34,378 nucleotides of DNA from NCBI GenBank assembly GCA_038137385.1, contig JAYQBP010000004.1, positions 1-34,378 of the forward strand, read 5' to 3'. The notes below the pieces were generated by a model that worked only from the letters and a program-made list of their open reading frames with translations, was not told where the DNA came from and ran no database searches. Positions 5,206-32,169 of the stretch are shown piece after piece. The translations under genes were made by a program, and so were the position numbers. Source of the DNA: Opitutales bacterium. GTDB taxonomy: Bacteria; Verrucomicrobiota; Verrucomicrobiia; Opitutales; Seribacteraceae. Each line of letters starts with the position of its first letter. Within the stretch, counting starts at the first letter, position 1.

Positions 5206-5220
5206 TTCATTAGATCCCTA

Positions 5221-7110: not shown

Positions 7111-7149
7111 AAAATGAGTTTTTGTTTTCGGATTCAAAATCACTCGGAA

Positions 7150-7596: not shown

Positions 7597-10500
7597 TTAA
7601 GGACTTATGATCCTTAGCCGTAGGAAATTCGATGGTTGAATCGAAGAAGAAGTGGATTGATAGGTTACCTGCTCCATATCTTCTCCAATTTCAATGGTAC
7701 TTACCAGCCGTACATTTGCCGTTTTCCATACACGCAGGTTAGTACTTTCTTCGATTCTGTATTCAAAATCTTCTCCCGTAGATGCGATTGGGTCTTTGTA
7801 ACGAATAAAGGAAATGCTTGGCTTTCCATGAATTGTTTTAACTTGCTGGCTGCCTCCATGCCGATCAAAACCAAGTGAGTCCATGCCCAGGGCCCTTTCG
7901 TAGAGATTGCTATATCCATCTCCATCGGAGTCAGCCATACTCAGGTCAAATTCATACTCTGCCTGTTCTGATGTCCAAGAAGACATTTGACTTAATCTTT
8001 GCGAAATGAAGTTTTCTTTGACCTTGTTATACCTTGGATCATTTTTACGCATATTTATCCAGGCTTCTTTGGTTGGATTAACCACTTCAAGTGTTCGGGA
8101 TAAAGTGATCGCTTCAGCGTATTCAGAGGTGGCTGGAATATCAAAGTATAGGGTTACGGTTCCAGTTTTTTGGGCAATGATACGATTGCGATCAATTACT
8201 TTGACTATACTGGGGTCGGAACTTGTAATCACAATACGATCTCCATTACTCGCATAGGCCCCCGGTAGAATAATGGGCCGGGGTTGGGCAATGACTGGTG
8301 GCAGTGCTCCTGTGTTTTTGGAATCGGCAAAGAGAACGGAGGGCCTTGATTTAGAAGAGACCTCGATTTGGATAAACACTGTATCTGCTGCATGGACAAA
8401 GGCGTTTCCACTTTGGCTGGCTGAGATCACGATGAGCCCCTCGGTGCCATCAAGCGTAACGACTCCACGCGAATCGATTGTACCAGGACCTGATTCGATC
8501 CTCAGCGTAATGGGTAGGTTGTAAACATCATGCCTAATACCAGATGAGGTAGCCAATGCACGGATGGGGAAGGGGGGGTCTTCCCGAACTTTTAGAGGAA
8601 TCATATCATAAGAAATATTCTGATCATCCTTCTGAAATAACGGGTCTGAAAAATCGATAATTTGCAGTTCCACTGATTGGGGTTGTGCCGGTTGGTATCG
8701 AGAGTCTCCATTCTGATAAGCCGTGATCGTTACTGTACCGGGTGATAATATTTTTGCTTGGTCCCCGGCAATGGTAAGAACATTTCTGTCACTGGATTGG
8801 AATATTATAGGTAAGCCAGAAGAAGCGAGTGCAGATAGGGTAAAGTCATTATCGTCTGCTTTTTTAACGGGCAGTTTTTCCACTCCAGATGTTGTGTTCC
8901 CTTCAACTCCTAGCCAAGTAATGACTTGATTCCCTCCAAAACTTGGCGGAGATACTGCGTATGGATGGAACTCAGGAAGTAAGGGGACCAACTCCCATTT
9001 GTGGGCTAAGTACCCTTCCACTTTTTGTCTATTGAAGAAACTAACTGGCTTATCAAAAATCAATACTTCCCCAAGGGTTCCAGTCAGCCCATGACCTACT
9101 TGATTGAGAGGCTGCGGAGTCGAGTTACTGGATGTGGATCCGGCAAGGTCTCCGTTGATCCAGAGGTTTTGTGTTCCCGATGATATTCCAATGCTGAGAA
9201 GGGTGAGCGTATTGGTTGCGCGGTTCGATGGAATATGTGGATCCGAATTATTGTAACTGAGTTCAAAGTTCCCGCTATTCGAGGTTAGGTATAAATCGCC
9301 CCCGAAAAGATTGGAGCGGATCGCTTGGGTTTGCTTTAGGATCGCAAAGATTAAGGCGGGTTCAGCTAAGGCCAATTGAAGGTTGAGTGATTGATTGAAG
9401 TCCGCATTAAAATCAATGCTGGGACGGGTATTTGCATGTCCAGGATTCCAAATGGGCATCTGGCCGTAAGTTGCTTGTACAGGACTGTTGTTATTGCCTG
9501 ATTTGTCTGACCATAAGCTTACTTTGTTTAGGTCGACAAAATCATCCTGGGAGTCGGGCGAGTTATCGAAGTTGATATCCGTCGCATCCAGCCATAATCC
9601 AAGTCCTGGAATCGAGTCTGCAAAAAGATTTCCGTATGCAATTGAAAAAGTCTGCGATACCGGCTCAGCCGGATTATACAGTTGGTTTCCAGCTTGGGAT
9701 GCCGTGATTGTCAGCACTCCGGAATTTCTAATTTCTACAATATTTGAAGAGATCGAGGCTAAGGCGAGATCAGAAACAGAAAATTCAATGGGGAGTCCTG
9801 AAGTTGCAGTTGCCTCCAAGCTAAAGGGGAAATCACCTACTGAGCGATTGATTAGAGGATCAAATTCGATCTGCTGGTCGGCTTTTACGACGGTAAGGTA
9901 ATTGTAAACAGGTATAGCCTTTTCGTAGGTGAGGTTGCCATTTTGTCTAGCAGTGATTCGGGTGGTGCCGAATCCCGTTGGAAGGATGGTTTGATAGTCT
10001 CCCCCTCCTTGGTTAAAGATCTGACCAATTTCTTCAAGGTTTAGGGTGCTGTTGTAGTAGCGTAAATCATCGATCATTCCATCAAATGATGCGGAACTAC
10101 TACCCAATACTAAATTCGAGAACCTAAATCCAAAAGGAAGGGAATCGTTGGATTCAACGGCATTTTCAATTTCCAAAATGGCGGTTCCGTCCGCATAAAG
10201 GGACAACTCTTTTGCATCCGCGTCGTAAGTAACCGTCAAGAATGTCCAGTTTTCATCACTTAGGATTTCAGAATTACTTCTGTAAGTGGAGGGAGATGTG
10301 CCGCCATCAGGATAGTAATTAAATTGGATACTACCGTTTCCTTCCTCCTTCAATAATTGGAAATGGTTCATGGTTGGGATGCCAGACTTAGACAGTAAAA
10401 CCATGCTGCTATCAGAGGTAGTATTTAAATCTGGTTTGATCCAAAATGAGAAACTGTAGTTACCATCCAATTGAATTGGTCCAAAATTTACATATCCATC

Positions 10501-13500
10501 AACACCGTCAAACTTTAGGGAGTTGCCGAACTTTCCACCGGTCCATGCATTGTCATTCCCTACGGTATTTAAGTTAAAAACAGTGCCCGAGCTAAGACCC
10601 TTTTCGTCGAAAACTTCTATGTATTTGTCTTCGTCGAATTTCCAATGAGATTGAAGAGAATCTTCCCTGGTAACAATCAACTTGGCCACCCCTTCATCTT
10701 CGATTTCATAATAAAGAGGTAAATCGGTCGGGGTGTAGTTTTCGAATGGATCAATAATCCTTAATGGCTCAATCATTTCCTGGTGATTGATACAGAAATA
10801 AAAGATACTTGAGTTGAAGTCCTGAGGAATCGATAAAGTGATTTGACCACCATTTCCGTTAAGGGGACCGCCGGTTACCAAGGCCGAACTGGTATCTCCC
10901 CAAGACTCCCCAATCATAAATGGATGGCTGGAGTGGACTCCATTATCTTTAAACACATAGGTGGATCCCCGAAAGAATACTTGTTGGGATAAATCCATGG
11001 CTCCATTAGAACTATTGAAATCGTAATATGGAGATGTGGAACTGCCTCCATGAACGAACAAATCCCCTACATGATTTGGGTCTGCAAGATTGAGTGGTGC
11101 CATCATTGCTTCATGATTTGTACAGAAATAGTACAGCGAGCCATTAAAGTCTTGAGGGATCGATAGAGTGATTTGACCACCATTTCCGTTAAGCGGATCA
11201 CCGCTCACCAAGGCTGAAGTGGTATCTCCCCAAGATTCTCCAATCATAAATGGATGAGTTCCGAGAACTCCCAAATCCTTGAACACATAGGTCGCACCAC
11301 GAAAGAATGTCTGTTCGGAGAGATCGAGGGTTCCTTCCGAATTATTGAAATCGTAAAACGGAGATGTGGGGCTTCCCCCGAATACGAAGATATCTTCTGT
11401 AGCCACCATTGATTGAACCGAGAAACCATCCAGTTGAATGGGAGGCGATAAAGCAGAAATGCCGGATAAATTTTGATCGAAAATAAGTTCCTGTCTTAAT
11501 TTCTCACTTACGGTCAATATTCCATTTGCATAACTCAAAAAGTACAGTTCGGAAAAAGCACCTTCTGCTTGGATGATATACTCACCGGTTACAGAAGGAG
11601 AATCTATGGAACCATCCGTTACTCCGACAGAAATAGAAATATTTTGGTCAAGGATTGATTCATTATCATCGCCAATAAAGCCAAATAAGTCGTAGGTGAG
11701 AAGGGGGTTACTCTCGGTGGTTTTACGGTATTTGTCATGCACTCGTACCAAGAGCTCTCTCTTGGATACAATAAATTCGGTAATGATTTTTTCAGCTGGG
11801 GCATAAGTGCTGTTCCCATCGCCTGGTTGGGTGGCCTGTAATTTGACGATACCGGGTTTTAAAATACTCAAGGTACATGGCATTTGGGTATCGTTTAGAT
11901 CGATGGATTCATTCCCTTCCAGGATTTCCAGGTAAACAGGCAGTCCTGAAGTTGCCGTCCAGTTCAAGTCCACTGGAGGATCGCCATACCTCAGTAAGCC
12001 GATTTCAGAGGGAAGAATACTTTGTTGGCCTGGTAAAACATAGAGAGTCATGTTTTCCTCGTCTAGACCTGATGAGTTCCACGCTTGCAAGTTGACCTCG
12101 AATGTGCCGACTTCTTCAGATTGCCCGAAAATAATGCCTTTTTCAGTATCAATTTCTAACCCCGCAGGAAGACCCGTTGCATTGAAATCGGTAGGACCCC
12201 TGAGGGTCTCGATCTTCAGGAAGTAATCCTCTCCGAATGCGGTAACTAATGGAGAACCTATTCCAAGATAGCAATCGTCTCGTTCGGTGGGGGTAATCGC
12301 GTGAGCGTAGAATCGAAAATCATCGATTAGCCCATTATAAAGACCAGATCCTAGACCATCTTGCCCACCCATAAAAATAATATCATCCCCACTGAGCGAT
12401 CCCTTGGCATTGATCGAGTTGGTGACTTCCTGATTATTTAAGAAGAATTTTAATTTATTACCATCCCACCACAAAATTAGATGAACCCAAGATCCAAATG
12501 GAAAGAGCACAGGTTCAATCTCTTTCCACCTAGAACTTACATACACTTGGGCATTGAGATAGCCGTCTGAAATTCCTATTTGGAACCTGCCTGAATTTAC
12601 CAAGTCTGCGTTTCGGTCCTCGGTGTTGATCCAAAAAGCAACGCTAAATGCTGAGCGAGCGTTTAAAATTTCAGGACTGTTGGACAACTTTATGGTTAAG
12701 TTGCCATCAAAGTGTAGGGCGGAACCTCTCTTTCCTTCCTGTGAATTCTCAAGAAATAAATCATAATCTAGATCTTTATCTTCCGCCAATCCATGGTTTT
12801 CCAATCCAGAAGAATCATTTACCTGAGTGCCGTTAAGGTCGTCAAATTTCCAATGAGCAACGGCATCTTTGGGGAGAAGAATCTGCGGAATATTGTCAAA
12901 AACTGGCGGAAAATCTGAATAGGTATGAGTTCCAAAGTCACCGTTTCCATTTCCATAGATTTCAGATATCTCCGTGGAAGAAAGCGTCCGGTTGTAAACT
13001 CTGAAATCATCGAGGGAAGGAGCAAATCTCCCAAAGTTTGTGGACAGGTTTCCGAGAGAGATGATTCCCAAAGAACCCGCACTACTTCCAGAGTAACGGC
13101 TAACTTCAACCCCATCGATGTAAATAATATACTGATTGGAAGATGAGGTAAGTCCAATCTGATGCCAAACAGGATTGTTGGTGGTTCCGGAAAGATCGCC
13201 GGCAAAGACATCTGTACTGGGTGGATTTTTATCATTGAGAAAGAGCTGATTATTACTCGACTTATCAAAATATAAATAAGTGAGGCCGGCCGAATCCGTG
13301 AGGGCATAATCCGAAGCGACTTCATCATCTGGTTTGTCAATCGGACTGAGAAACCATGAGGATACCGTCCAGTTGAGTTGATTTAATTCCAACTCGTTGG
13401 CACCTAAATCAACTTTCGCAGTACTTGGAGAAATTCCATCCAATCCAATGCCGGATGAAAATTTTCCTGACGCTCCCAAGTCGGCATCCACCACAATACC

Positions 13501-16500
13501 ATGGCGCAACGCCAAAGAGTAGTCTTCTACTACAGACCCCCCCGTTTCATTAAAGGGATAATAAAGAATGAGCCCTTCGTGTACCGAGAATCCAGACTGA
13601 GCAAGATCATCAAGAATACCCCACTTGTGAGCTAGGTAGCCTTCGATCATTTCCCGTTCAGCTGGTTCGAGCATCCGGTCGAAAACTAAAATTTCGGCAA
13701 TTTTACCGGACAGCAATCCAAATCCAGTTCGAGGATCCAAGCCAAGAGTGATTTGCTGCAATGCATCATTTTCTCCCTTAAATGAATTGAGACGGTTTCC
13801 AGATCTTGCTTCTAAGGTCCATGATGAAGCCCCATCATCCGCACCGATAGTAACGCCTTCCCCTTCTGAGATGACAAATACGTTTATGGGGCCCGATAAA
13901 TTGGTAAGGGTACCAACAAACATGGAGTTGCCTGATTCAAATTGAACTGCGGGCATAGTCCCAAATCCATCTTTATCATAAATTGGCATTTTGCTGAGGA
14001 TAGATTGGGTGGCATGTCTTTCTGATCGTGATTTATCCAGCCAAAGAGGAATTTTAGCACCATCAACGAGAGTGTCTCTTTCTCGGTCGCCATCGATATC
14101 GGAAGCGTCCAGCCAAAGGAGTAAGCCATCGAGTGTGTCCTTGGTAAACTGAGTATCGATTGTTCTGAAAGTAAAAATATCATCAGCCCAAGTCTCTCCG
14201 GCTAAATTTTTGGCATAAGCCCGGAAATAATAATCAGTATTTTCGGTCAGATGATTAGTGAGTAACTGATCCAAAGTACCAATGTCTGATGATTCACTGA
14301 GTTGAATCTTATAATCCCAGGTTGCATTGTTATCCGGACTGGTGGCTGTGGAATTGGCTTCAATTTTTTCATCTCCCCAAAAGATGAACACTTCGGCTGG
14401 GTCTCCTCCTATGCTGGTGACTTCAGTTTCACTTGATTTACCTCCAAACGGGGCAACCGTCGAATAAGGATGATCAGTTGGTAGGATTTGTTCTTTTAAA
14501 TTCCACTTGTGGGCGAGATATCCTTCGATTTGATTTCTTTGAATCGCATTGAATTGTCCTTGGTAAATGAAAATCTCTGCAATCTCACAGGCTGATAACT
14601 CGCTGTCCGTCATCCATCCTCCAACCTGGAGGACGCCAGGACCAAAATTGGCGTTACTGGAACCGCGCGATTCGTTAATCAGTAAAACACCATCCTGCCA
14701 TAAGCTGGCCGCCGGGTCCCCCTTATTGCTTTCGATCGTACCAAGATGTATGTGCCAATCGCTATCCAATGAACCGGTTGTAGAGATCCACCCTTCCGCA
14801 TACCATTTGCCCACCTGAGAGCCATGAAAACCGAAGAGGAAATTTCGGGTTCTTGAGCTGATGATCCGCTGGTTTTTCAATCCGGTGTAACGAGCTAGGG
14901 AGACCATGGTGTATCCGCTATCGGTCAAGGTGTCAAAATTATGACCGGTCCAAAGTAAATCATCGCCATCAAAATTAAGCACGGGTTTTCCATTGAGCCC
15001 AAAAGTAAGTAATCGTGGATTCCCATCCACATTTTCAAAGTCACGTCCGTATCCAGACTTATCTTTCCAAGTACTCACACTGGCTCCATTGCTTGCGACA
15101 ATACTGTCGGTGGAATACCATGCCTGGATGCCAGGAATGCTTGTCTTGCTAAAACTGGCATCTGTAGAGAAAGTGTTTTCTACAACCTCCCCGCCTATTG
15201 AGGTAAGTTCCGCTCTTAATAAGACCGATTGAGGACGGGCATCCAAAGCGGATAGGGTGCGGATTTCTGGCTTTTCGATTGCACGATACTCAATAAAACC
15301 ACTGTTGTTTACATCGCCCTCAAATAATTGGTTAATTTCGGATCCACTAAGTCCGCGATCATAGACTCGCAAGTCGTCAACAAGTCCATTGAAGTTACCA
15401 AAATCACTAAAAGGAAAAGTTCCCTGAGGTTGACCTACAGCAGGAACTTCATCATGGGCGGGTATGGTCCCATTTCCTGGAACTGAAACAGGTCCGTCGA
15501 CTAATTGACCATCTAAGTAAAGTTTAAGTACTCCTGGATTTTCTCCATAACTTACGGCCACATGGTGCCAATCATCATCCACTTCATTGGCCTTTTTTAA
15601 AGTTGAGAGCCCGGGAGGAGGAGCGGAGAAGTGCGGATGTTCGAAGGAAAGATTTGAATTTAAGTTCCATTTGTGGGCAAGGTATCCTTCCATTGTGTCA
15701 ATTTCACTATCCTCTAAGGCTTTGTTAAAAATTAATATTTCAGATATTCTTCCGTGCCATTGATCTCCACCATTGCCCTTTCCACCAATAGAAACGGGGA
15801 TCGATGGCTCGGATTTTATCGGACCAGTTAGGTTCGCTTGTTTGTGAGTGGAACCGTTAATTCTGAAGATCAAATTATTACTTGAATAGTCGGATGAATA
15901 TCGAAGAGTGACGAAACTGGGACCTCCATTGAAGTTGGCATTGACTCCAGTAGACCAAATTGCATCGCTGCTTGTATGTAAGTATTTGTTACCTCCTGTA
16001 TTGGTGTTGAATGCAGGACCCCATATCCGGTGACCTCCATAATCAGCTCGATGAATATTAAGTGTCCAAGCAAACGGGTGTGAATTCGAGTTTGCCCACC
16101 CAGTATGGTTACTCTTTCCGAGAATGACACAGAAGTGATCAAAGTTGGTTTGGTAAAGAGTTAAAAATACAGTCATTTCTGACCAACCGTCAAAAACGGT
16201 TTCACTATCCTGAACGATCAATACATCATTGGTTATATCGATCGCTCCAAGACCATTAAATCCATCCGCCCGCCAAAGTGGATTATGGCCCGAGAATTTG
16301 GTGGCATGGTGCATGTTTCCACTCTTGTCTCTCCAAAAACCAACGGAACTGCCATCACTTGGAGGGCCCGATTCACCATAAGTTGTGCCTATGTCCATAT
16401 TTTCTCTATCGGATGCATCCAGCCAAAGTTTTAAATTTAAGGATGGGTCCTGCAAAGGGGAGAAAGGCAAATCATTACCCAAGTCTTCGATCAAACGAGT

Positions 16501-19500
16501 GGTACTTAATTCAGTGACTGAATTGTTCTCGATAATTTGGGTACGAAGACGGCCTTCGTCATTCACTAAGACCATGCCATTGGACGAGGAACCTTCATCA
16601 TAGATTGCTTGTTTGCGATATCCGGCAATCTCTCTGCCGGTTAAATCATCCTGAGCGATTTCGTACATGTCACCCTCACTCAAAACTGAATTGTAGATCC
16701 GTAGTTCATCTACTTTACCTGTGTAGAAATCCTGATCTAATGGGTGAACTCCGCCCATGATCCAATCTGGGTAATCATCCAAATTGATAGGTGCACCATC
16801 GGGTATGAAACCATCTCCAGTTTTTACACCATTCACAAAAAGGCTAATGGAAGACTGGTTTCGATCTACCGATAGTCCAATGTGAGTCCAGTTGGAATTG
16901 TTGATTGATTGATTGGATTCTACCAATGCAGTGCCTCCATCAGTAAAATGTCTGTAGAAGAGGCCACCGGCGCCATCAATTCCTATTTGCAAGGGCCCCC
17001 TGCGAAGGAGAGAAAAACGATTTTCTGTTGAGAAGATATCGGATTGCTTTTCATCCGATGGATAAAGAGTGGTTAAGCTTGGTGGGCCAGAAAAGCTGGA
17101 TGGCGTTGCAAATTTGACATCGAGGGACGCGGTTTCGGTGAGTTCCCCATGATAGACCGCAAAATTGTAGGTGCCTTCGCCAAGGTAAAGCAGGTTGTTC
17201 GCTTGATTAAACTCAGAATTTATATCCGAGTAGACAATTCTTTCGGAAGATTCAAAAGTATAATCCTGATCCAAGTCGATCCATACCGCAGCTTGATCGT
17301 CCACATTTAAAAGCTCCCAGATGTAGGTTCCCGATTCCTTCGCATGGAATCTTCCTTTAAACAAAGCCAAAGTATTGTGATAGGAGCCAGAGCCTAATTC
17401 AAGAGCAAGGAAGTCTGAATCGTTTGCCAGGGATAGTTTTTTGGCTCCCGCATCGTTGAACTGATTCAATAAGCCCCATTTATTACCAAGGTACGATTCC
17501 ACTTTGACCATTTCTTCCGCACTCAAGGCTTGGTTGTAAATTAAGATTTCTCCAAGGGACGCGTTGGCATACCTGCCATTGATATTTCTGTCGTTGGAAA
17601 AATTATTCGCCCGGACATTGCCCGAGGTAAGGAGCGAGTAAACCGAGAATTCATCCGGCCAACTCCCATATATATTGTAGGGTGCACGATTGATACGGAA
17701 AGTGGATCCTGATTTTATGTACCCACTGGTGTGTGTGGAATGGAAGATTGAACCGGACCCATTGGAGTGGAAATGGTAAGAACCAGAATCTCCCAGTAAA
17801 AACCAACCCCCACCATCGTAATCCAAAGCCCAAAATACCGTGCGGATATCTGAGATACGATTGAATGAATGGTAGTTCCCATTGGATCCATCATAGTTCA
17901 TCACTGCCAAACCATTTTGGGCATTTGACATGACCAAAGGATTTCCATTTTTTGATGCATGATTACCCACCCCGGAGAGATCATTCCAAGTCGATTCAGC
18001 TAAAGCAAGTTCACTGGCATCGAGCCATAAACTTAACCCGGGTATACTTGTGGGGCTGAAACTTTCAGGATTGAAATCACCGAGGTCTGCATCGCGAATC
18101 AAAGAGACATAGTCCGGGTTTAAATTTAAGAGGTTTTCAATGTTTTCATAATAATAATCACTCGCAGAAAGCTTAAAACCATATGCATGCAGTTGTCCGT
18201 TTTGTTCCTTTGATCCGCTCGATAGTTCCGGGTTAATCCAAAGGGATACGGAGAAAGACCCTTGGTGAATTTCGGCGAGGGAATCAGTTGCAGGAATGGA
18301 GACAAAATCTTCGTCCTTGGAAAACTCAATCGATTTACCATACTTACCCAAAGCCCAGCCATTGGGGTTAACCTCCGCTTCGAGTTGATCAAAGTTGGAG
18401 TCATACGCGATATTGCCATATCCAAAGTCAAATGGAAAGTAGGCGGACAACTCTTTGTATTTAGTGATTTCAGGTCCGACATAAACACGAGGGTCAACTT
18501 TAATCCATGCACTTATCGTTCGACCATCAAAGGGCTCTCCAAGATAACCCGTGTTTTCAGGGTCGAGATTGAGCCAATTTGTGGCACCATTTAATCGTAG
18601 GGCATTTCCTTCATGCCCGGGAAGGCGAGTATCATTGTTGTCTATATTTTCAATCCCTGCGTGTCTTAAAGGAATAACTGAATCCATAACCTCACTTCCG
18701 TTATTTTCATCCATTCTCCAAAAGCCCAGTAGTTCATCCTTGATGTCAGGTTCGCCACTTGACCAATCTGTACCATCTATACTTTGAGCAAAGGCTCGGA
18801 AAAAATATTTTTCTCCAGGAACTAATCCATTCACGGTCGCATTAAATTCACCGGCTGAAACTGGATCTCCATTGTTAACGGATAGGTTGCCATCCCATTG
18901 AGACGGGTCAAATCCATGATCTTTAGACCCGTAAAAAATCAGGATTGATGGGTTGTTTTGATCCAAGCTCGAAAGTTCGCCCAGAATGGTAACCGAGTTA
19001 TTGGACTCGGCTTTGTATCCGGTGAGTTCCACCACCGGAGGCTCTGCAGTTGATGATGTGTTAAACTTTACACTTCCATCCAAATAGAGCATAGCGATCT
19101 CGGCTGAAGATAATCCACGATTGTAGATTTTAATTTCATCCAGGGTACCACTGAATTTATTATTTGCTGAGACTCCACCTAATGTAACATCACGCTCAGA
19201 TGATGTATTAATAATCGTATTAGCAAGACTGCTTGAAGAATAAGGGTAGGAGGGTTCAAGTTGGTCGACTAGTCCCCATTTGTGAGAGAGATAACCTTCT
19301 ATGGATTGCCTGTCTATGCTTTCAAGGTCCAAACCAACGATGATCATCTCTCCAATTTCACCCCCAAGAAAATCAGCCGCTGCCGTGAAGTTTGCCCCAA
19401 TGCGTATACCATTGGAAAGATTGTAGCTTCCCGTATTCAGGCTGGAAACTTCTCTTCCATTTAAGCTGATGACTCCGTTTGATTCGTTAAATACTGCAGA

Positions 19501-22500
19501 AATGGTAAAGTAGCCACTCGGGGTGCTCATGAATGAGTCTGCCCAGTTTCCAGCCCATGATTTAACAGATCCTGATACATTGAGTGCAAGTAAACTCCGT
19601 TGCTGATTATTGATCACACCGTCAAAGAGATAGTCTCTTCCGGTTCCACCCGTAGTTTTGGCAACCATGAAGATAGAGTAAGGTTGATTTAAACTGAGGG
19701 AGGTGTTGGTCAGGTAGTCACTTGATCCGTCAAAAATGATGGTAGGCAACCCTTGTAAGCTTGCAGAGCTATGTGTAGGTTGGTTTTGAGTATTATCTTG
19801 AGTGGCATGTAAGTCATTGCCGCTCTTGTCTTTCCAAGTTGAGATTGGCTGGTTACTTGGAGTATCAGGTATGCCATTCGCATCTACATCGACTGCATCT
19901 AGCCACAGAATAGGTGCGTAAACCGAAGGTTCTTTGCGATAAATGGGTGAAGTTTCAACAGCTTCTCCATCGATGTAAATGGAAGTGTCGGCTAGGTACT
20001 TTGAGCCAGATGGAAAACATACAACCAAATTATGCCACAATGAATCATTGATTGTTTGGTCTGTCATCAAGGCTACATCGGTGTCAATTTGCAAAAGAAC
20101 TTTACCTTTATTCATGCCAACTGACCAAGATGTGCCGCTTTCATTACCTCCCCAACTTATGATTTCATTAGATTCATCCTGCGTCTGAACCCACAGAGAG
20201 AGGGTTCTGGCATAATTCCCGGAAATACCTTTGTAGCCAGAAATGACTAATTTTTCTGCCTCATTGCCGGTGAAGGGGAGGCCTAATCCCTTGAATGCAA
20301 AAGTTCTCGCTTCAGCCGATAAACCAATAAGGTCGCCATGATGATTTCCTGCAGAATCGATAACTTTATCTCCTTCAATTTCATCAAAACTCCACCAGGA
20401 AGAGAGTCCGTCCTTGGTGGGCTGACTCCATATTTGGTCCATAACTGAATTACTTCCCATCCACCTGTAATAGTAAGTTTGGTTCCCAGTTAAAGATTGT
20501 ATGTAGTGGGATACCCGACCATCGGTATGGGTGTGGTTTATTGTATCATTGTAATCCCATAAACCTGGGTTTTCTCCCCCATCGTTATCTCCCCAAAATA
20601 GAGTCATTTGCAGGGGTTCACCTCCGTCGGATATAATTTGGGAAAACGCTTGGGCATTCGATGAGCTAATGTTTTTGGGCTTAGCACTTTCGATTTCGGG
20701 CTTTGATTTTAAGATAATTAATCGAGCATTCTTTTTGGTAGAACCTGCTCGGTTAGTCGCAGTTATGTTTAAATCAAATGTGCCTATCTCTTGGGGCAAT
20801 CCCGTTACCTCAAGAGTATCTAAGTCTAAAGAGAGCCCTTGGGGTAACCCTGTAATCAGGAGTTCGTCAATGTCTTCACTGGTTTGAAAAGCAAACTGAA
20901 AATTCACAGTTTCCATAATCCAATCTTCTGCAGTGGAAATGGAGGCGATTTCATTGGCACTCAATGAATCATCATAAATTCTGAAATCATCCAGTTTTCC
21001 ACGAAGGTAGGAGTTAGTGTTGTTGGCACGCCCTAAAATTACTGGATCCTGATCACCGGTTGAGATAGTGGATCTCGTTTCTGAGGCCACTAGTTGCCCA
21101 TTGAGGTAGATCAAAATATTGGCACCATCGTAAGCGTGAGCTATATGATTCCAGTTATTCCTTAGTTCAACATCGTGAGAAACTTGAAAATTCCATCCAT
21201 AGTGGTCACTGACAAAAGAGGAAAAATTATCCTGTCCAATACTTCGAATACTCCAGTAGCGATCTGTTTGACCCAAATTAGCCAGTTCGCCAAAACCATA
21301 TGGACCTGCCTGTTCACTGGGCTGGAAAGTATCTAACCAGATCCAAAAAGAGAGGGTTCTGGGATTCTTGGCTCCGATTCCGAGAGCTTTTGCGGAGGCA
21401 TCGGTTCGGGCATGACCACTTTGGCCATCAAATTCAACCGCCCCATCAATTCTGCCTACCACTCTTTTGAATCCACCACTGAGGTTTGCATGGTGGTCGC
21501 CCTCTAAATCATAAAGGGTAAACCCTTGTTCTTCATCCATAGGCCAATAGCCCCTGAGGTTTTCCGGCCGGGTTAATACTTGTGTGCGAGTAAATTGTTC
21601 TTTTGCTTGGCGGATGGACAGGTAATGAATCGGATTGATCTCAATGGTCGGCGGACGGACTTCGATAATGTTTCCACCTCCAGACTCAATGTTGCCCTGT
21701 TCCACCTCGCCCGAAGAAGCAAAGAGGACTTGTCCGCCACCCGCCCCTTGGTTGCCCCCAACTACGCGAATCATGCCGCGGTTATAAATATTTTGTCCCA
21801 ACAGCTGTATGGCTCCGCCGGAACCTCCTCCACCAGCTAGATCAATATTCTGGTTGGTTCGACCATTTCCACCCGAAGCACTGATTAAAGAACCATTTGC
21901 AATGATGATATCCCCATCGGCCTCGATTCGCAGGGCTCCTCCACCAGCACCAGACCCTTGAAAAAGACGACCGCTGGAACCACTGCTTCCCGGCATCAGA
22001 TTCACGCCATCTTCATTATAATTGTAGCTGGCTCCAACGCCTGCTCCAGTATGAGAGGGGCCGCTCCCTGGGCCGTTGCCTTTTAAATTTTCTGCACTCA
22101 CTCCATGCCAGGGGTTGAGTGCCCCCATCCCTCCATACCCTGAAAGGGAGGAGGCGTCCCCACCATCGAGGATAAAGTCGGCCGCGGTATAAAAATTTCC
22201 CCCGGCAATTGTTTTTATAATAAGGGGTTTATCACCAATAAGGTTCACTTCAACATCCGCCCCAATTTTTACTGACCCGAAGGTAAAAGTACATACCGGT
22301 ATATTCCAGATATTGCCCATTCCATCAATGTAGGAAGGGGTTGTGATCACACCGGTTCCGTGAGCCCCTCCTTCGATCGAAAAATATCCTGTTTGGGTGT
22401 TAAAAGTAATCCTGCCTTCATCCAAATCGATTACTGACGCAAAGTAATTTCCTCCAATATAGACAGATCCCTCGCTACTGAGCCACTCGCCCGATACATC

Positions 22501-25500
22501 CACCTTGCCCATAGTGACTTTTTCGTTGGCGTGTAAAGCGACTCTTCCCCCTCCAGAACCCCGAGTTTGATTTGTCCCGTCAAGTTGAATGCCTTGCCCG
22601 GATTTAGCCTCGATGAATCCAAGGTTGAGGATGGTTTGCGCTTCTAACTTAATCGCCCCACCACTGCCAGAGGCTGAGGATCTTATTCCATCGCCTCCAT
22701 TGGCAGTGAGGTAAACATTTGGCTCGATTTGCATATGCCCGGCAGCTTTTAAATAAACCGCTCCTCCGCCTGCCCCTGATCCATCGTTGGTCGACGACCC
22801 CCCGGAACTACCCCCAATTAAGTCAAAAATCTGGGCACTTCCGTACAAACTGGATCCCTCTGAACCATGCCCTCCATAACTCGCACCGTGTCCATGTTCA
22901 GATATTTCTTTGGAACTACCCGGTCCTTTTCCTATAAGCATTCCAGGAAGGACTCCGTCATAGCCTCCTAAAATAGCTGAGCCTCCTCTACTCTGGATTA
23001 CATCAGGCGATCCACCATTGGCATGTAGGTCGGAACCAAGAGTGAAGTCACCGGAAGCGGCTTCAAGCCAAAGGGCACTATTCCCTTTAGTTTCAATGAC
23101 CAAACTTCCTCCCAATTGAATCTCTTCAAAGATAAATTTACAAACTGAATAAGACCAGAGGGTTCCATCATCATGTCGATAAGATTGATCTTCAATAATT
23201 CCGTAGTAGATATCACCGTTACTATGTTCGATGATTCCTTTGGAAGTATCTATGAGTAGAGTGCCGGAAAAATGAATCAAATCAGACTGAATAATTGGTT
23301 GGTCAAACCGAACACTACCATCAGTTCCAGAAGTGGTTCCTTCGCCCCCATCGGCAATTAAGTTGTCTTCTCCATGGTTCACGAAACTCTCGATGCCACT
23401 TAAAAAGATTCTACCGCCACCGCCACCGCTTCCTCCCCCCGAAACATCGAGGATACTGTTTTCAGAGAGAATTAAGGTGTTTGCAGACAATTTGATCGCA
23501 CCCCCTGATCCACCACCACTGCCAATGGCACCTGTTCCACCCACGGCTATTATTGGGGAGTCAACTTTGAGGGTGCCGGCTGCATCAACTGATAGGGCAC
23601 CTGCACCCGCACCCCCAGAAGAATCCACTAAGTAGCCACCGCCCCCACTTCCTCCAATGAGATTGGAAATTTTTCCGTCGCCGTATGGCTTGCCGGAATT
23701 GAGTGTGGAGCCAGCCCCGGCCCCACCATAGCCTCCACCTCCCGGAGAAACCCCGGAAAGTCCTCCTCCTGGCCCGAGACCGCGCTCATTTACTTTTCCT
23801 CCAGCAAATCCTCCAGGTCCGGCATTGCCAGGAGTTTCTCCGCCTCCGTTGGCCCCATTAAGGATTAAGGGAACCGCGATTAACGCATCCTTAGACACTT
23901 GGATATCCAAGGATGCTTGTCCGGTGATCACTACCTCCAAACTGCCGGCCAAACTTAATTGATCGAAGTTAAATGTACAAATTTTGTAAGGGTAAGCATT
24001 CCCCAATTCATCCATGTAAGTGCGATCGCTTACCTCACCAAATCGTTTGTCTCCGTTCGAGTGCTCCCAAGTAGCTAAGGAAGTATTGATGAACAATTTT
24101 CCCGAATCGTAAGCAACTTTATCTTCAGCGACAAAGACCTTGCTTTCCTCTGCCCAGACTCCTCCACCAGAGTTAGATGCAAAGGTGCGATAGAAATAAG
24201 TTTCATCGGAAGCTAAGCTCGAAATATCAGTTTGATATAAGCCATCATCATATACCCAGAATTCAACTTCTCCCCACTGGTGCCCCCATCCTTGAAACTT
24301 AGGGCTTAACCGAATGGCTTGGGTGCTAATACCTTCTAGGGAAAACTCTACAAACTTTCCTCGCTCAATAGGCCCAACAAAGTCAGCCACTGTTTCGTGA
24401 TGAAGGAAATTCATTTCATCGTCAGCGATGTAGACATCGATTTCTTTGAGCTCATCATCCCGAGCAAAAGGTTGATAGTAAACACGGATCTTACTTAAAG
24501 GCCATTCCCGACCCAGATTGAAAGTAAGTTGTGGGTTTACTCCGTACCATGCAGTCCAGGTAGATCGCCATCCGTCTTTTGGCAGTAGGCCATCGATCAG
24601 CTTGGAAGCCGGGTAAGTAGTGCCTTTATCATTGGGTTCGGGATCACTTTTAACCACCACTTCCGTACTTTTTAATTTTCTCAGGCCAACACTTACAGAT
24701 CCAATATCAACTTTATTTTCCCATAATTCTGAGTTGGTTTCCCCATCATTACTTCCCCAGTAAATGGTCAGGTTTGCAGATGGGTCACTCGGTACAGGGT
24801 CATTGTAACGATAAGGATGGGATAGGGTGAGGGTATCCTCAATTCCCCACTTATGAGCCAGGTAACCCTCGACCAACCTGACAAACTGAGTGGGTAATGG
24901 CTCATTGTAAATTAATAGTTCGGCAAAAGTTCCTCTCCAATAAGTTTCATTATTTCGATCTCTTGAAAAGTTAGATGCCCGAACCAAACCATTGCTGACG
25001 ATACTGGTAATGTTCATGGAACCGGTTCCGTAGTCTTGACCCAGTCCATCTCTCCAATTGCCATTCTCTCGAATGGTACCGTTGATATGGTTTGGGTCTG
25101 TCCAACTCTTATTCCATATCGTAGTAGGTCCAGTTTGAACGGCGTATCCATACTCATGCCCCAAAATAAAACCACGACTGCCGGGCTTTCTCTCAGCAAC
25201 CAAAAAGACCGACCGGATGGCGCTGATTGAAGTGTCAAAGTTCAATACATCGCTGTTACCATCAAATTGAAGGATGGGTAAATCGTTGAGTGCATTTTGC
25301 AAATATCCCGGCTGTCGGGTTGGATCACTCTGGGTTGCATGGTTGGCGTTGCCTGATTGGTCATCTAAACCAGTAAGTGGAACAGGTGGTGTGTAGGTAG
25401 CGTTGAAATCATTTTTGAATGGATGATCATCGGAAAGGGCACTGTTTAATCCCCATTTGTGGGCCAGATAGCCCTCTATTTTCTGTCGAATCTCGTCACT

Positions 25501-28500
25501 GGATCCATTGACTAAAATCAATTCACCTATACTGCCGGAGTAGGGAAGGATTCCCCCTCCAGAGTCAAAGCCTGCACCGATAAACATGGAGGCTCCAGTA
25601 TCACTTGGAATACCCAATTCATTTTCCTGATCCGATTGAATCTTTTCGTGACCATTCAAAAAGAATCTCGAAGAATTATAATCCGAGCCAGCTGTTCTTA
25701 CCCAAGTTTGAATGCTAGTTTGACTCTTGGGTGGTTCCTCAAAGTTAATCAAGCCGTCATTAAATCTCCAGCTTCCTCCTGCACCGGCTAAGATGCGATT
25801 CCGGCTTTTTGAGCCAAGTTGAAAGACCCGGTTTACACTGAGCCATTCATTCGATTCTGGAACACCGAGCAGTTCAATTTCAGCAATTTGCATTTCATCA
25901 GATGAATTGAAGTCCACCACCGAGGGGAAAGTGAGTTTATAAGTAAGATAACTTTCATTGTTTTCAATTGCGATTTGCTTCCGCTGCCCCCTGTCCGTGA
26001 ATGCTGGTACAGCCCCATCGGCAATAACCGTAAAACTGGCCCCATTATCATTGGAGCCCTCCAGTATGAAGCTGGCGGGGTCACGGGCGGGCATATCATT
26101 AGCGGATGTAAATGATAATCCGTTAACCACTCCGGAAACCTGAACATCGATGATCAGTCCAGAATTATTTACATCGTAATTTAAGTATTTGGTCGTTGGG
26201 TCGTTATCGATTGCTTTTTCCGCATTTTGAGTACCCGGAGACCCACCCGTAAAAGAGGAGACTTGATCTTGTGGGTGGCTAAGGTCGATCCCACTTAAGC
26301 CAGGCTCGGTGACAGCAAAAACCATCAGCTCAGGGTTTCTATTCAATCCGAACCGAGAGTCGATCTCCAAATAATGCTCAATGCCATCAAAGCGAACAGC
26401 AGGCAGACCATTAATCACATTTTCAATATTTTCTTGAACAAATATATTCCCATTCGCCGAATCTTTCCATTCCCTTACAAAATTAGAAATGATGGAGGAT
26501 GAATCATTGGCATCAAACCAAGCTTGTAGGGAGGATTCATTTTCAGGGGACCAATCCGTCGGGGGTGAATCCACATAGGTATGGCTACCCGGTAAGTTAT
26601 ATTCCATTCCCCACTTGTGAGCTAGGTACCCTTCCACTTTTTCCCTAACCGAATTGCTGAGCACTTGATTGAATCCAATGAACTCTCCAATCTCACCCGT
26701 GGTAAATTCACTCTTGGATTGCCAGCCTCCAAATTGCAGCTGCTTGGGCATGTAGTAATTTACATTATTGCTTGCCCCATTCGTATTCTGAGTATTCTCA
26801 ATGAAATCCAACCAGGAAGTGGCGGTATCCGAGGAATTGATACTCGCCGTTAGTATGTGGAAGTTTGTATCGGATGAAACACCAGAATTCTTGACCCATC
26901 CGTTAAAGTACTGCTTGCCCACTCCAGTCCAATGAAAACCAAAAAGCCAGTTATTATTGGTTCTATCCGAAATTAGTCGCATCTTTTTCCACCATTCATT
27001 GGCTGCATAGCGGGCCACAGCAATCATCGTGAACGACCCCGTAGATTTATCCCATCGCTTTTCAGAGTAAAGAGAGTCCCCGCCGTCATTACGATTGCCT
27101 TCAAAGCGAATCACTTTGAGAGTTGAGTCTTCGATGTATTCGACTCTTTTAGGATTTCCCTGGGCGATCATGTCATAACCATTTCCACTTTTATCGAACC
27201 AACCCGGTACATCCTCCTCACTCAAAAGAATCATTGATGAATCATTGGCATCAAGTTGCAGAACGACTTCCTGCAATACTTTCGGGCTCCATGGTTGTGC
27301 AGAGACCGAACTTTCCGAGTCGTAATGAGCCCCTTCAGAGGCATCTAACCAAAGCTGCAAACCGGGGTAGTCATTGGGCGAAAAAATTCCCCCAGTCAAA
27401 TTCCCGATGCCTGGGTTAACCAATTGACCGGTGAGAGTCGCGGAGTTTTGTCTTAAGTTTGCCGGTTCCCGGTTGATTGCAATCGGTGCATTGGTTCGTC
27501 CCGTCGTACCCACAGGCGTGACTCCTTGAGTTATAATTTCTCCAAAGCTTGGAGCCTGAGATGACCAAGGATGTATTGAAGGTAATTTTATGCCCCACTT
27601 ATGAGCCAGGTAACCTTCAATGAGTAAACGGTATTCCTCAGGGTTTTCGCCCAAAAAGAGCATGAATTCACCCACCTGACAGTCCGATTTTTCTCTTCCA
27701 TTTAACCATGCACCAAAAGAAATTTTTCGGGGTCCGGCTCCGTTATGGCTTGAGCCCTTGGGATTGCCCTGATAATAATTGCCCGCAACCCCATCATTCC
27801 AAACACGGGTGGTAGGGTCTGAACTTTCCGTGTATGCTTGGTGGGAAAGCTCAAAAATATGAAAATCAAGGTCCGCTTCAAAGCCTTTATCTACCCATCC
27901 ATGAAAGTAATAGGTTCCAAGTCGATTATTCCAGGCCCCCATTAACCAGTTGGACCATGGGCCTTCTCCGGAGGTGAATATTCTTCCATTTCGGCCACCG
28001 GTATAACGGCCGACAGCAAAGGCAGCATAACCTTTCTTGGTCCATTCGTTCGTATTTGTATTCCATCTGCCAGCTTTATCCCAAAAGTCATAGTCGTTGA
28101 CCAACCAGTCGTCTCCATCAAACTCCACCACCGGTCTGCCCTCATGCCCATCAAGGACAATTTGTGGAGTTCCACTTCCGCTGCCAACTGCTAGGTGTTT
28201 TTTCTGGGCATCGTCAGGATCATCCTCACGGGCTTTATTCTTCCAGAACTCTACTGGAGTTCCGTCGTTAGGTAGGGGAAGTTCATAGTCATTACTACCG
28301 GTATGATCGACTGCATCGTACCATAAGGTTAAGGTGTAGGGCAGATCATTCAAACTCGCTTGCCGGTTAATAAAAAACTCTTTTCCTGTCCAAGAACTAC
28401 CCACAATATTTTCAGCGTAAATTCTGACATAATAACGTTGATCAGCATCGAGACCTCCCAAAACGGTACTGCCAGGACCAAAACCCTGTTTGCCAAGACT

Positions 28501-31500
28501 CTTTCTGTATTTCCAAGCGTAGAGGTCCGTTCCATGATCCATTGTATCTGCAAGAATAAAAACTTCCGGATCATCCCCACCGGTGGCATTCACTTCATAC
28601 TCAATCCCCAAAGATGTGGTGTTGTCGCTAATTACATTGTTGAGAAGAACTTGGGGCAGACCAGGTTCGATATTGAGGGTAACGGTTTCCGTGGCAGTTG
28701 AATAATCCAAGTAAATTGCTCGGATCTCCGCTTGGTAAATTCCGGCTCGGACCGGTGTCCCAGAGAGGTTGCCATCGGTTGGGTCGATGGTTATGCCTCC
28801 GGGTAGACCATTGGCAAGAAAAGCCACCGGCGAACCAGTTGCAGTCATGATTTCCTCGAAATAAGTTTCAGCATTGAGAGTGAATTCCGATGCCGAGGTG
28901 AAAGCATTTTCCCCAGTCAATGATCCGACCTGAGGGAAAGAGTATTGACCGGATTGGTTTTGGTAGCATGCCTCAAACCAACCGGTGGATCTGATTTTGG
29001 AACTCAATCTTATTTCGTCGATGGAGAAGGGTACCGAGCTTAACCCAAACTTCCAGTCCGCGGCTAGAAGGTCGGAATTACTGGAAGGAGAGAATGATTG
29101 CTGGGCAATCGATTGCCCGTTAAGAAAGATTTCCTGGGTGCCAGCAGTGTGATTGATTTGAGAGGCAATCAAGGCCCACTCGTCGGATGGAAAGCTCGTG
29201 TCACCTTCCAGGGAGGTAGGGGTTGGGGATAGGCGATGCACTTGCAAAGGTTTCATGCTTTGCAGGTCTAACCTCTCCGTAGACCCAAACTGATAGAAAG
29301 TAAATGGACTGATACGGTCCGATAAGTTTCCATCAAATGTGAGGTGGAAATGTTTGAACTGACCAGGATCTTGCGGGTCTAGAGTCGTCCAGTCGTTCCA
29401 CCCACCATCTGGTGAGCGGGATTGAAAGTTTAATGATGAAGCAGATACCCCATCCGGAACACCGTGAGCCAACATTAAATTATAGGGAAGTTCAGCAACG
29501 AGTTGAACCGGGGATGATGTTTTTAAATCAGTCCGACAAATTCTTTCCCCGTTAGAAAAATTACCATCGCGATCTAGATCTATCCATATAGAAAGAAAAT
29601 CGTCGCTTCCCGTAAGGGCACGGAATTCGTAGTCTCCAGTTTCTGGGGGAGTGAAACGAGTCAATAAACCCGTGATAAATCCACTTGTCCGGCTAACTCC
29701 AAGGTTAAGCACTTTTAAATCATCAACAGAATTAAAAACAAAACCAGTCTCATAGGGGCCGGTTTTAAGAATGGCAGAACCGGTAGGGTCTAAGGAATTG
29801 AACCGGGAAGGATCATCAAAAATTGCATGAGTTGGACTTTCATCAAAGCCTAAAACAAAAACCGCATCATTGGTTCTCTCCTCAGGTAGACGGTCCAATC
29901 GAACCCAACTGGAAAAAGAATAAACCTGATCACTTAAGTTTTTCAGGGATTCAGTATCGGGTGCTCGAATGAGTTCGCCGGATTCTCCAAAGAATGATCT
30001 TCCTGATCCCAGTATAGAATGAGAAAGGTTTTTCCCAAAAGGATCCGTCAGGTGGTTCCGGTTTGCCGTCGAATCGGTTAATTTCGAAGATCCGATTACA
30101 GGTCTCAGGTGCCATACACCTTCAAATCCATCGGTCCAGACTTCACCATTGATGGAGTAACCTGCGGGGTATTGGGATAGTGCATGGTTGCCCCAGCAGG
30201 CAAAGAATGAAGTAGCGGTAGTAAGTTCAGGGATTTTTACCCACGCGACTAGTTGATTATTGGCAAGGTCAAAGGTTTCCAATTCATGAACCAGTTCTTT
30301 ACCGTTCACATCAAAAAATCGTAAATCGTATCCATGATCCGAGGAGAATAATCGAAGACTAAATCCATCAATGGATGAATTGAGTTCAACTTTGAGCGGG
30401 AAGTTATAAAGGGTCTCAGAACCCGCATAATTTTCGCAACTTATAAGGACTTGTTGTGCGAAATCACTTTTTTCGCTGATTTGAACCTGAATTGTTTCAA
30501 TCTTTTTACCAAAGTTATTTTCAGCTATTACGGTAATGGTGTATAAGCCACCCTTTACTGGTGTGCCGCTAATTTCACCGGATGCCCCGTTGATTGTAAG
30601 GCCAGCTGGTAAGCCGACTGCGGAATAAGTAACTTCACTTGGGTAGGTTTGAATAAAAAAGGAGAAATTTTGATCGGTAAAACCTTCGGCTCTTTGATTG
30701 GGGAAAAAGAAAGGTGGACCTTTGACTTGTGAGTGAGAGAAGAAGGGGGTAGCATCGGGTTTTAAGTTTTCATAAATGGTGGCAATTCTCTCCTCGGATT
30801 CGAGTTGAGCACTCATTCGAATCTCAACGACGATACCAGTCCATGCTTCTTCCCCCGTAGTTGTGGAACCTATTCTAAATGCCTCAACTGCCGCACCGAA
30901 GGGTCGACTTATCCCGTTTTGCGATAAAACAAGACTGCCATCCCGGAAGACTTTTGATTTTCCAGTTACATGATCCACTTGGAACACCCAATAGGTCCAT
31001 GTGTTATTAAAATTATTAATTGCAAGGGAGGCATCATCGAGAGACCCACTTCCAGTCATCCAATGAAATGCACCATCACTTCCTGGTAGCCTGAGTTGAA
31101 TGTGTGATCCCAGGTTTGATGTTGAATGAATTAAAGTAAGGTCTTTGAGATCTTCATTTTCATTGTAGGACCAAAAGGAGAAACTGGCTTGTTGGCTTCC
31201 AGTGGGTGGGTGAGCCGAAGTGGGTATTTCGATGAAATCATCTACCCCATCAAAGCGTTTGGCTAGGCCAGCCACACCGGGCACTGATAAATGTTCGAAG
31301 TTTTTGGGTTTAGCATGAAAACTGGCCGCTGAATCACGAATGAGATCAAGATCGTCATGGTCCAATCTCCAAACGGCTCGATAATCTTTCCATACCGATC
31401 CGTTTTTTGTGTAAGCAGGCGGGCTTGATACAGCTGGATTTCCCCATTTAGCGAGAATGGACATATTACTTTCCAATGCAGGTAACAGAATCCAAAAAGA

Positions 31501-32166: not shown

Positions 32167-32169
32167 ACT

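What the first reader, a model, noticed from the sequence alone, without database searches (positions are those of the whole stretch)
15320..18735. Four-level Russian-doll domain nesting: LamG > LamG > PA14 > WLDA-HKW module
Seen in translation. An outer LamG starts at LLGFWRMDE (~18720) and breaks after RTISAWIKV. An inner LamG starts (LSAYFPFD, ~18440) and breaks after FSVSLWINP. A PA14 starts (QLHAYGF, ~18190) and breaks after YVSLIRD. A complete module follows (FSPTSIPGLSLWLDAS...ESYLGNKW, ~18060-17470). The layers then close in reverse order: PA14 (KLSLANDSDF...VDDQAAVWID), inner LamG (NWTHIGLSV...KVDELRIY), outer LamG (QAIYDEG...). The outer LamG takes a second module (~16470-15600) before finishing at DDDWHHVAVSY...VDDLRVYDR. 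The intact PA14 at ~29330-29875 confirms the break point. Inference: the chain folds as a branched tree of lectin-like domains rather than the usual linear string of giant adhesins. I know of no described adhesin with this depth of recursive insertion.
Basis: partly seen in the sequence, partly recalled or inferred. Interest (0 to 1): 0.85.

Follow-up and report, generated by a model that had tools for sequence, protein, structure and literature searches.

The report
Four-deep nested lectins with swappable tips
A roughly 15,000-residue, likely surface-exposed protein of a marine Verrucomicrobiota bacterium has sugar-binding-type domains inserted one inside another four layers deep; relatives lack the innermost domains or carry different ones, so it likely forms a branched glycan-binding surface with exchangeable tips.

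Summary
The nesting is real: LamG[LamG[PA14[module]], module], window 15313-18735 (-), inside one giant gene. Rejoined halves give single full-length LamG hits. In the AlphaFold2 model (pLDDT 83.7), the inner LamG (residues 93-697), outer LamG (46-1129) and PA14 (180-573) each superimpose on one solved domain at rmsd 2.5-2.8. Of 48 complete orthologous segments, 17 carry both modules and 31 lack both cleanly. The host is a marine Opitutales family; orthologues run 10,800-16,400 aa, are predicted to be secreted, and differ in inserts at many slots. New here: the slot-2 module is swapped between genomes (scaffold 97% identical, module 46%; AU p=0.0001). The principle is known: RTX adhesins have three-level split domains and swapped binding domains, and cyanobacterial RNA polymerase has six levels. 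I found no four-level adhesin in print, though this scan already noted nested LamG fibres in viruses. Glycan binding is inferred, not tested. Verdict: new variant of a known kind.

The parts
7597..34378 (-). C-terminal ~8,900 codons of one giant secreted-type gene. The in-frame TAA at 32170-32172 is particular to this assembly. The N-terminal ~6,400 aa with a signal-peptide-like start lie on contig C14.
   Evidence: (4 of 4 runs read a sense codon there)
18490..18735 (-). Outer LamG/ConA-like domain, N part (level 1 host), aa 4478-4559
   Evidence: model range 46..1129 vs 1qu0_A and 18..1127 vs 3pve_B
18211..18453 (-). Inner LamG, N part (level 2), aa 4572-4652
   Evidence: model range 93..697 vs 5hon
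18085..18204 (-). PA14, N part (level 3), aa 4655-4694
   Evidence: model range 180..573 vs 6m8m_A
17449..18057 (-). WLDA-HKW module in slot 1 (level 4), aa 4704-4906; probable ConA-like beta-sandwich, no Pfam hit
   Evidence: absent in 31 of 48 orthologous segments
17020..17439 (-). PA14, C part, with the Asp-Asp motif at 17296-17301
   Evidence: Pfam PA14 model 45-127, E 0.0016, below cut-off; D conserved in 37 of 48 and 32 of 48 rows
16639..17019 (-). Inner LamG, C part
   Evidence: Pfam Laminin_G_3 model 46-147, E 6e-14
16480..16617 (-). Outer LamG, middle part (aa 5184-5229)
   Evidence: HMM 82-115 (weak alone); contiguous with the C part in module-free orthologues
15607..16461 (-). WLDA-HKW module in slot 2 (second branch of the outer LamG), aa 5236-5520; core exchanged between genomes
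   Evidence: (1wd3_A Z 17.2; 9vyh_q Z 17.4)
15313..15585 (-). Outer LamG, C part
   Evidence: Pfam Laminin_G_3 model 77-151, E 6.5e-13
28954..30093 (-). Another split LamG, hosting the uninterrupted PA14 at 29329-29874 in about the same loop
24133..27489 (-). Second four-level nest in the same protein: FN3-like > module > (module; module > probable F5/8-type domain), plus an F5/8 domain
   Evidence: FN3-like host rejoined 59 bits over model 6-94; pieces 8, 28 and 29 bits
19075..20409 (-). LamG hosting a WLDA-HKW module; uninterrupted in G020, G026 and G027

Best explanation
This stretch is a four-level nest of beta-sandwich domains (LamG > LamG > PA14 > ConA-like module, with a second module on the outer LamG) in a ~15,000-residue protein that is likely secreted and surface-displayed, and that likely works as a branched, multivalent glycan-binding surface whose outermost modules are exchanged between genomes. 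Shown by sequence: the nesting, its presence or absence across orthologues, and replacement of the slot-2 module core. Predicted by AlphaFold2: each split domain refolds around its insert. Inferred: export by a Sec-type signal peptide, retention by a Verrucomicrobiota-type C-terminal domain, growth by in-frame insertion of whole domains into permissive loops, allelic exchange by homologous recombination through conserved module ends and flanks, and Ca2+-dependent sugar binding by the PA14 Asp-Asp site, probably to algal glycans.
For: Rejoined halves give full-length single domains. VIA-align on the model gives discontinuous ranges at single-domain rmsd: inner LamG 93..697, 189 of 206 residues, rmsd 2.7, Z 21.4; outer LamG 46..1129, 151 of 181, rmsd 2.5, Z 14.5; PA14 180..573, 150 of 177, rmsd 2.8, Z 14.4. 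The module-free orthologue from G023 models with the same pairing. 17 of 48 segments have both modules and 31 have neither. Slot-2 incongruence: G012/G008 scaffold 97% vs module 46%; G006/G009 52% vs 68%; G000/G006 75% vs 37%. G012/G008 DNA runs 76-100% per 60 nt except 35-65% inside the module core. AU tests reject scaffold clades on the module tree (p 1.3e-4 and 2e-68). The closest PA14 and LamG folds include characterised sugar-binding domains (6m8m, 5a3l, 4ahw, 5hon, CBM40), and the Asp-Asp motif is largely kept (its role from PMC8092209, passages). Signal-peptide-like N-termini are seen by eye in G007, G027, G020 and C14. The C-terminal domain matches Verrucomicrobiota-only Atlas clusters.
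Against: No binding or localisation was tested, and a shared fold shows no function. Cells of the probable family are reported as mostly single and not particle-attached (PMC8857213, passages), which argues against a classical adhesin. pTM is 0.58 and no PAE was available, so branch geometry is unknown. The model's alignment included the module-free orthologues, so model and orthologue evidence are not independent. No fold-search row covered the slot-1 module on its own. Codon identity at module ends among the 12 copies in the window equals codon-usage expectation (0.42 vs 0.43), so there is no sign of conversion between slots within the gene. The Asp-Asp motif is incomplete in 11-16 of 48 rows.
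Confidence: 0.6

Rival explanations
1. Same architecture, but the protein is a protective coat. The variable tips are selected by phages or grazers (receptor masking, decoys, antigenic variation) rather than by food or surfaces.
For: Slot-2 cores are replaced between near-identical scaffolds. Related modules occur in phage virion proteins (phrog_10356, E 1.6e-19; cyanopodophage tailspike 9vyh; virus-rich Atlas clusters). Cells of the probable family are free-living (PMC8857213).
Against: No phage data were examined. Swapped binding domains in RTX adhesins go with target choice (10.1101/2025.09.30.679566, passages). The PA14 sugar-site motif is mostly conserved.
Confidence: 0.22
2. The nesting is real but largely neutral accretion: LamG, PA14 and FN3-like loops tolerate insertions, modules drift in and out, and the protein acts as a bulky structural spacer with no specific ligands at the tips.
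For: Inserts come and go at many slots and hosts. 29 genomes of three other genera lack both modules at this nest.
Against: The three-level core is found in 48 of 76 family genomes (23 of 26 near-complete ones), and all 17 module-bearing segments fill both slots. The slot-2 core is replaced rather than lost. The gene takes about 2.8% of a 1.6-Mb assembly.
Confidence: 0.13
3. The pieces are tandem degenerate domains, or the LamG halves pair crosswise (outer N with inner C), so there is no true nest.
For: The HMM scores crossed pairings as well as nested ones. The middle outer piece is weak alone.
Against: Both models pair 93..697 (93..486 in the short form) and 18/46..1127/1129 (10/46..614/615) as single domains. 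The pieces cover exactly complementary model positions, and the deletions in orthologues are clean.
Confidence: 0.05

Closest known systems
Split-domain / ligand-binding-domain units of RTX adhesins (Aeromonas AhLap, Bordetella Bp1, Marinomonas MpIBP; PMC12077191, 10.1101/2025.09.30.679566; passages read)
   Same: Whole binding-type domains bud from loops of host domains in a giant surface protein. Nests reach three levels (beta-roll > vWFA > insert or CBM). PA14-type sugar domains occur, and binding domains are swapped between otherwise near-identical adhesins.
   Different: Four levels with a branch point; the hosts are themselves lectin-type LamG/PA14 domains. No RTX beta-roll (0-1 nonapeptide matches per protein), a Sec-like N-terminus and a different C-terminal domain. 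Inserts are spread along the whole 11-16 kaa chain.
Recursive Si3 insertion of cyanobacterial RNA polymerase beta' (PMC13114784; passages and section 2.3 read)
   Same: Recursive A1-B1-C-B2-A2 nesting with bifurcating nodes; deeper there (six levels).
   Different: A cytoplasmic core enzyme built of small hybrid-motif domains; here ~200-aa beta-sandwiches of three kinds in a secreted protein, with inserts varying between species.
Fimbrial tip adhesins Mfa5, RrgA, GBS104 (PMC7835359; passages read)
   Same: A vWF domain inserted in a CnaA-like domain and itself carrying ARM subdomains projects a binding head.
   Different: Small proteins with a shallower nest, different folds and isopeptide bonds.
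PA14 lectins MpPA14/MhPA14 (6m8m), Flo5/Cea1; ConA-like AbnA domain 4 (5hon), CBM40; GH54 arabinofuranosidase domain (1wd3); cyanopodophage Pan3 tailspike (9vyh)
   Same: Fold of the individual layers (Z 14-21).
   Different: Only 10-24% identity; ligands unknown; here each is interrupted by or inserted in another domain.

Membership tests
Nested domain insertion (A1-B1-C-B2-A2, ECOD sense) | Host halves cover complementary parts of one domain | tested here: met
Nested domain insertion (A1-B1-C-B2-A2, ECOD sense) | Halves form one compact domain in 3D | tested here: met
   predicted model only:
Nested domain insertion (A1-B1-C-B2-A2, ECOD sense) | Insert-free homologues exist | tested here: met
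   31 of 48 segments lack both modules. No orthologue lacking the PA14 or the inner LamG was found, so those two levels rest on paralogous intact LamG.
Laminin_G_3 / ConA-like (two host domains) | Profile match and jelly-roll fold | tested here: met
   PF13385 above cut-off on both C parts
PA14 domain | Pfam PF07691 above gathering score | tested here: inconclusive
   18.7 bits vs cut-off 24 here; 15-24 bits in four module-free orthologues and 39 bits in the G020 copy
PA14 domain | PA14 beta-sandwich fold | tested here: met
   6m8m_A Z 14.4, 5a3l_A Z 16.6, 4ahw_A Z 14.6
PA14 lectin | DcisD Ca2+ site | tested here: inconclusive
   Asp-Asp present (D in 37 of 48 and 32 of 48 rows); cis geometry and Ca2+ not testable
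PA14 lectin | Sugar binding | not testable with these tools
   needs a glycan array or ITC
RTX adhesin | [quoted passage not shown] | tested here: not met
   0-1 GGxGxDx[LIF] matches in each of 7 proteins; no RTX family in the Pfam scan of this protein
RTX adhesin | Binding domains project from split domains | tested here: met
   works alike:
GH54 arabinofuranosidase (for the WLDA-HKW module) | Catalytic acids in register | not tested
   fold likeness only (1wd3_A Z 17.2; Atlas rank 25 with PF09206 on 44% of members); no sequence match to it in the PDB profile search

The most novel reading that the evidence does not exclude
A whole family of marine Opitutales builds one 11-16 kaa secreted protein as a growing tree of lectin-type domains by repeated insertion into the same permissive loops, and diversifies it by recombining cassette cores at the branch tips: a natural combinatorial glycan-recognition display at least four levels deep, in which the unnamed WLDA-HKW domain is a dedicated plug-in binding module shared with phage tail proteins.
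Probability: 0.4. Interest if true: 0.78.

Novelty: new variant of a known kind. Interest (0 to 1): 0.6.

Why it matters
It gives a cellular, family-wide series of recursive domain insertion (three levels in three genera, four in one), with natural insert-free and insert-swapped versions of the same slot. That makes two open questions testable: how hosts fold around very large inserts (the outer LamG spans ~920 inserted residues), and what the giant proteins of PVC bacteria do. It flags an unnamed ConA-like module with conserved ends and a variable core as a candidate glycan-binding family, and points to loops that tolerate whole-domain insertion. It also shows why linear Pfam annotation misreads such proteins.

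Tried and rejected
Pfam on the N-terminal halves and on the slot-1 module found nothing relevant. Rejoined sequences were scored only with in-house HMMs, not with Pfam. Foldseek gave rmsd above 17 for all listed rows but the tailspike, as it handles the long gaps poorly; I did not use it. Real stop, readthrough or recoding at 32170: rejected, 4 of 4 runs read a sense codon. Gene conversion between module ends within the gene: not supported. Contig joints that skip parts of the gene had at most 35 letters on the short side, several at conserved module motifs, so they were treated as paralogue noise. One metatranscriptome run has contigs on 26 of 30 bins, but contigs cannot show transcription. 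A fifth outer level was not found: complete FN3-like units flank the nest. Wider spread: a profile of the three-level core matched full length in 4 of 4 other family genomes and in none of 116 genomes of other families in the order; 3 genomes of one family matched only the PA14-centred part. LamG domains in 44 loci outside the family were nearly all uninterrupted, but those loci were found through an N-terminal LamG motif and fed the HMM, so this is biased. Neurotoxin receptor-binding and sialidase domains among fold hits reflect the shared ConA-like fold at 9-18% identity, not a toxin. The peel missed G020's nest and the FN3-like hosts of this protein at its thresholds, so its insert counts are lower bounds. 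Dropped before counting: 7 loci cut before the outer LamG end, 3 duplicate or near-identical loci (the window's own locus counted once), and 4 of 48 matching family genomes never fetched. bioRxiv supplements and the Proteins 2024 split-domain paper (PMID 38591850, seen only as a reference line) could not be read and may hold deeper adhesin nests.
Full report
Setting. The finding lies in an 8,189-codon frame at 7597-32166 on the minus strand. The frame continues upstream past one TAA at 32170-32172 in the middle of a module. Four of four public runs read a sense codon there, so the stop is particular to this assembly. Contig C14 carries the N-terminal part, beginning with a signal-peptide-like sequence (seen by eye). 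Adding the parts and a gap of about 250 aa gives about 15,600 aa, close to the 15,510-aa frame in G006. Named records with close relatives are titled Opitutales, Opitutia or Verrucomicrobia MAGs, one Candidatus Chordibacter forsetii (L120, 49% identical). That this genus belongs to the family formerly called MB11C04 is recalled, not from a call. Runs holding the DNA are estuary and salt-marsh metagenomes.

Observation. Pfam sees only the C parts: Laminin_G_3 model 46-147 for the inner and 77-151 for the outer domain, and PA14 45-127 below cut-off. An HMM from 91 uninterrupted LamG copies puts the five LamG pieces at complementary positions. Rejoined, they give one full-length domain each: 137 and 102 bits, against at most 68 for a piece. 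A model made only from the upstream PA14 slot scores the rejoined PA14 at 89.0 bits, against at most 80.3 in 200 shuffles of the N-half. The same control for the 46-aa middle piece of the outer LamG is weak: 137.2 against 129.3 +/- 2.9, maximum 140.0. An inside-out peel with 11 domain models returned LamG(4478-5618)[LamG(4572-5172)[PA14(4655-5049)[module(4704-4906)]], module(5241-5517)], and the same four levels in G006 and G007; its PA14 model included module-free orthologues. Independent contigs tile the region.

Structure. AlphaFold2 on the 1,147-aa segment with 48 sequences gave pLDDT 83.7 and pTM 0.58. VIA-align against 48,161 chains superimposed single solved domains on discontinuous ranges: 93..697 on AbnA domain 4 (5hon_B; 189 of 206 residues, rmsd 2.7, Z 21.4); 46..1129 on laminin LG5 (1qu0_A; 151 of 181, rmsd 2.5, Z 14.5); 18..1127 on agrin G2; and 180..573 on the PA14 domain of an RTX adhesin (6m8m_A; 150 of 177, rmsd 2.8, Z 14.4). 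The slot-2 module matched a GH54 arabinofuranosidase domain and a cyanopodophage tailspike at Z about 17. The pairing is nested, not crossed, which the HMM alone could not decide. The 633-aa module-free orthologue gave the same pairing. Caveats: these are predictions, no PAE was returned, and the alignment contained the module-free forms. The slot-1 module was not covered by a row of its own; its fold rests on homology to the other modules, Atlas look-alikes and a weak profile hit to PilC (E 0.006).

Orthologues. The first three pieces match in 48 of 76 family genomes, and in 23 of 26 near-complete ones. Of 58 loci with that match, 7 were cut short and 3 were duplicates or near-identical, leaving 48 complete segments. 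Seventeen are 1,095-1,170 aa with both modules (12 genomes of the window's genus, 5 metagenome contigs). Thirty-one are 596-637 aa with neither (29 genomes of three other genera, 2 contigs). None is intermediate, and the gaps fall at the module boundaries. No orthologue without the PA14 or the inner LamG was found. Gain in the window's genus is the simpler reading but was not tested on a rooted tree. In seven giant proteins parsed (three of them incomplete), 3 to 10 domains each are inserts (lower bounds), in LamG, PA14, FN3-like, He_PIG-like, DUF2341, Ig-like and module hosts, and slots differ between genomes. Both LamG hosts of the finding, and a third LamG upstream, are opened at about the same loop (model 74-86). 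A second four-level nest lies at 24133-27489. The nest was not found in 116 genomes of other families of the order.

Exchange of tips. Slot-2 modules do not follow the scaffold. G012 and G008 are 97% identical in scaffold and 93% in slot 1, but 46% in slot 2. G006 and G009 are 52% in scaffold and 68% in slot 2. The window's module is nearer G018 (57%; scaffold 48%) than G006 (37%; scaffold 75%). In DNA, G012 and G008 fall to 35-65% only between the conserved module start and the EGYLAHKW end. On the module tree, AU tests reject the G012+G008 clade (p 1.3e-4) and the five-member scaffold clade of the window (p 2e-68); both groups came from the scaffold tree, though I had already seen the module tree. 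Slot 1 follows the scaffold within subgroups but holds at least three dissimilar types (16-34% between types). Module ends inside one gene are no more alike in codons than codon usage predicts, so exchange between genomes at the same slot is more likely than conversion between slots.

How it most likely works. Shown: the architecture, its variation and the replacement. Predicted: refolding of hosts around inserts. Inferred: export through a signal peptide and retention through a C-terminal domain with Verrucomicrobiota look-alikes; a stalk of Ig-like, He_PIG and FN3-like units carrying branches of lectin-type domains; Ca2+-dependent sugar binding at the PA14 Asp-Asp motif (37 of 48 and 32 of 48 rows; motif role from PMC8092209, passages); and tip variation that tunes what is bound. 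I give 0.6 to multivalent glycan capture or adhesion, 0.22 to a protective, phage-driven coat, 0.13 to neutral accretion and 0.05 to no true nest. The architecture itself I hold at about 0.95. Against a classical adhesin, PMC8857213 (passages) reports MB11C04 cells as mostly single, unattached and flagellated.

What is known. PMC13114784 (passages, section 2.3): single-level insertions dominate and nesting is a minority, up to six levels in cyanobacterial RNA polymerase. PMC12077191 and 10.1101/2025.09.30.679566 (passages): RTX adhesins project binding domains from split domains, reach three levels (beta-roll > vWFA > insert or CBM) and swap binding domains. PMC7835359 (passages): vWF in CnaA with ARM subdomains. 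Passages of two giant-protein surveys (10.1101/2023.11.21.568195, PMC11573180) note giants in PVC phyla, and a term search found neither 'nested' nor 'inserted' in them. PMC2662426, PMC5536039 and PMC13721041 (passages) added little. Searches listed no four-level adhesin and no description of this protein; most subscription papers are not covered. This is not an RTX adhesin but works like its split-domain design. Unchecked notes of this scan report LamG-in-LamG nests three to five deep in viral fibres, so the theme recurs and the depth alone is less surprising.

Verdict. Observation confirmed, interpretation supported, novelty tempered: a new variant of a known kind, interest 0.6. Its added value is the cellular, family-wide series and the exchangeable tip.

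Noticed in passing
window 32170-32172 (-): In-frame TAA splits the giant gene in this assembly only; 4 of 4 runs read a sense codon.
   Followed up: yes
window 26424: All four runs laid carry 21 extra bases here (in frame), so the window has a private 7-codon deletion or an assembly slip.
   Followed up: no
window 24133-27489 (-): Second four-level nest (FN3-like > module > module > probable F5/8-type domain); simpler versions in G020, G026 and G027. Not folded.
   Followed up: partly
window 21670-24110 (-): Three tandem ~270-aa glycine-rich units with no Pfam hit, conserved in all seven giants parsed.
   Followed up: no
window 7600-8019 (-): C-terminal domain (DSDGDG...FLRLRI) with Verrucomicrobiota-only Atlas look-alikes and no Pfam or NCBIfam name; candidate secretion or anchoring signal.
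   Followed up: partly
window 10750-11400 (-): Two near-duplicate ~105-aa units with a YYFCxxHxxM motif, cupredoxin-like by recall, in a stretch unassigned by my models.
   Followed up: no
G000 contig C14:4365-23675 (+): N-terminal part of the same gene; frame shifts coincide with runs of N.
   Followed up: partly
L031:1500-2000 (G020): In G020 the nested PA14 is a shorter, classical type (Pfam 39 bits), suggesting that the level-3 domain was also replaced.
   Followed up: no
L016:1525-2112 and L017:1540-2127: A module 61-63% identical to the window's slot-1 module sits just upstream of the nest in two genomes that lack it in slot 1, so module types move between slots.
   Followed up: partly
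window 5221-7143 (-): 640-aa ORF downstream of the giant gene with no Pfam or NCBIfam hit. Neighbours are a rhodanese, PriA, a PQQ-repeat protein and a K+ channel.
   Followed up: no
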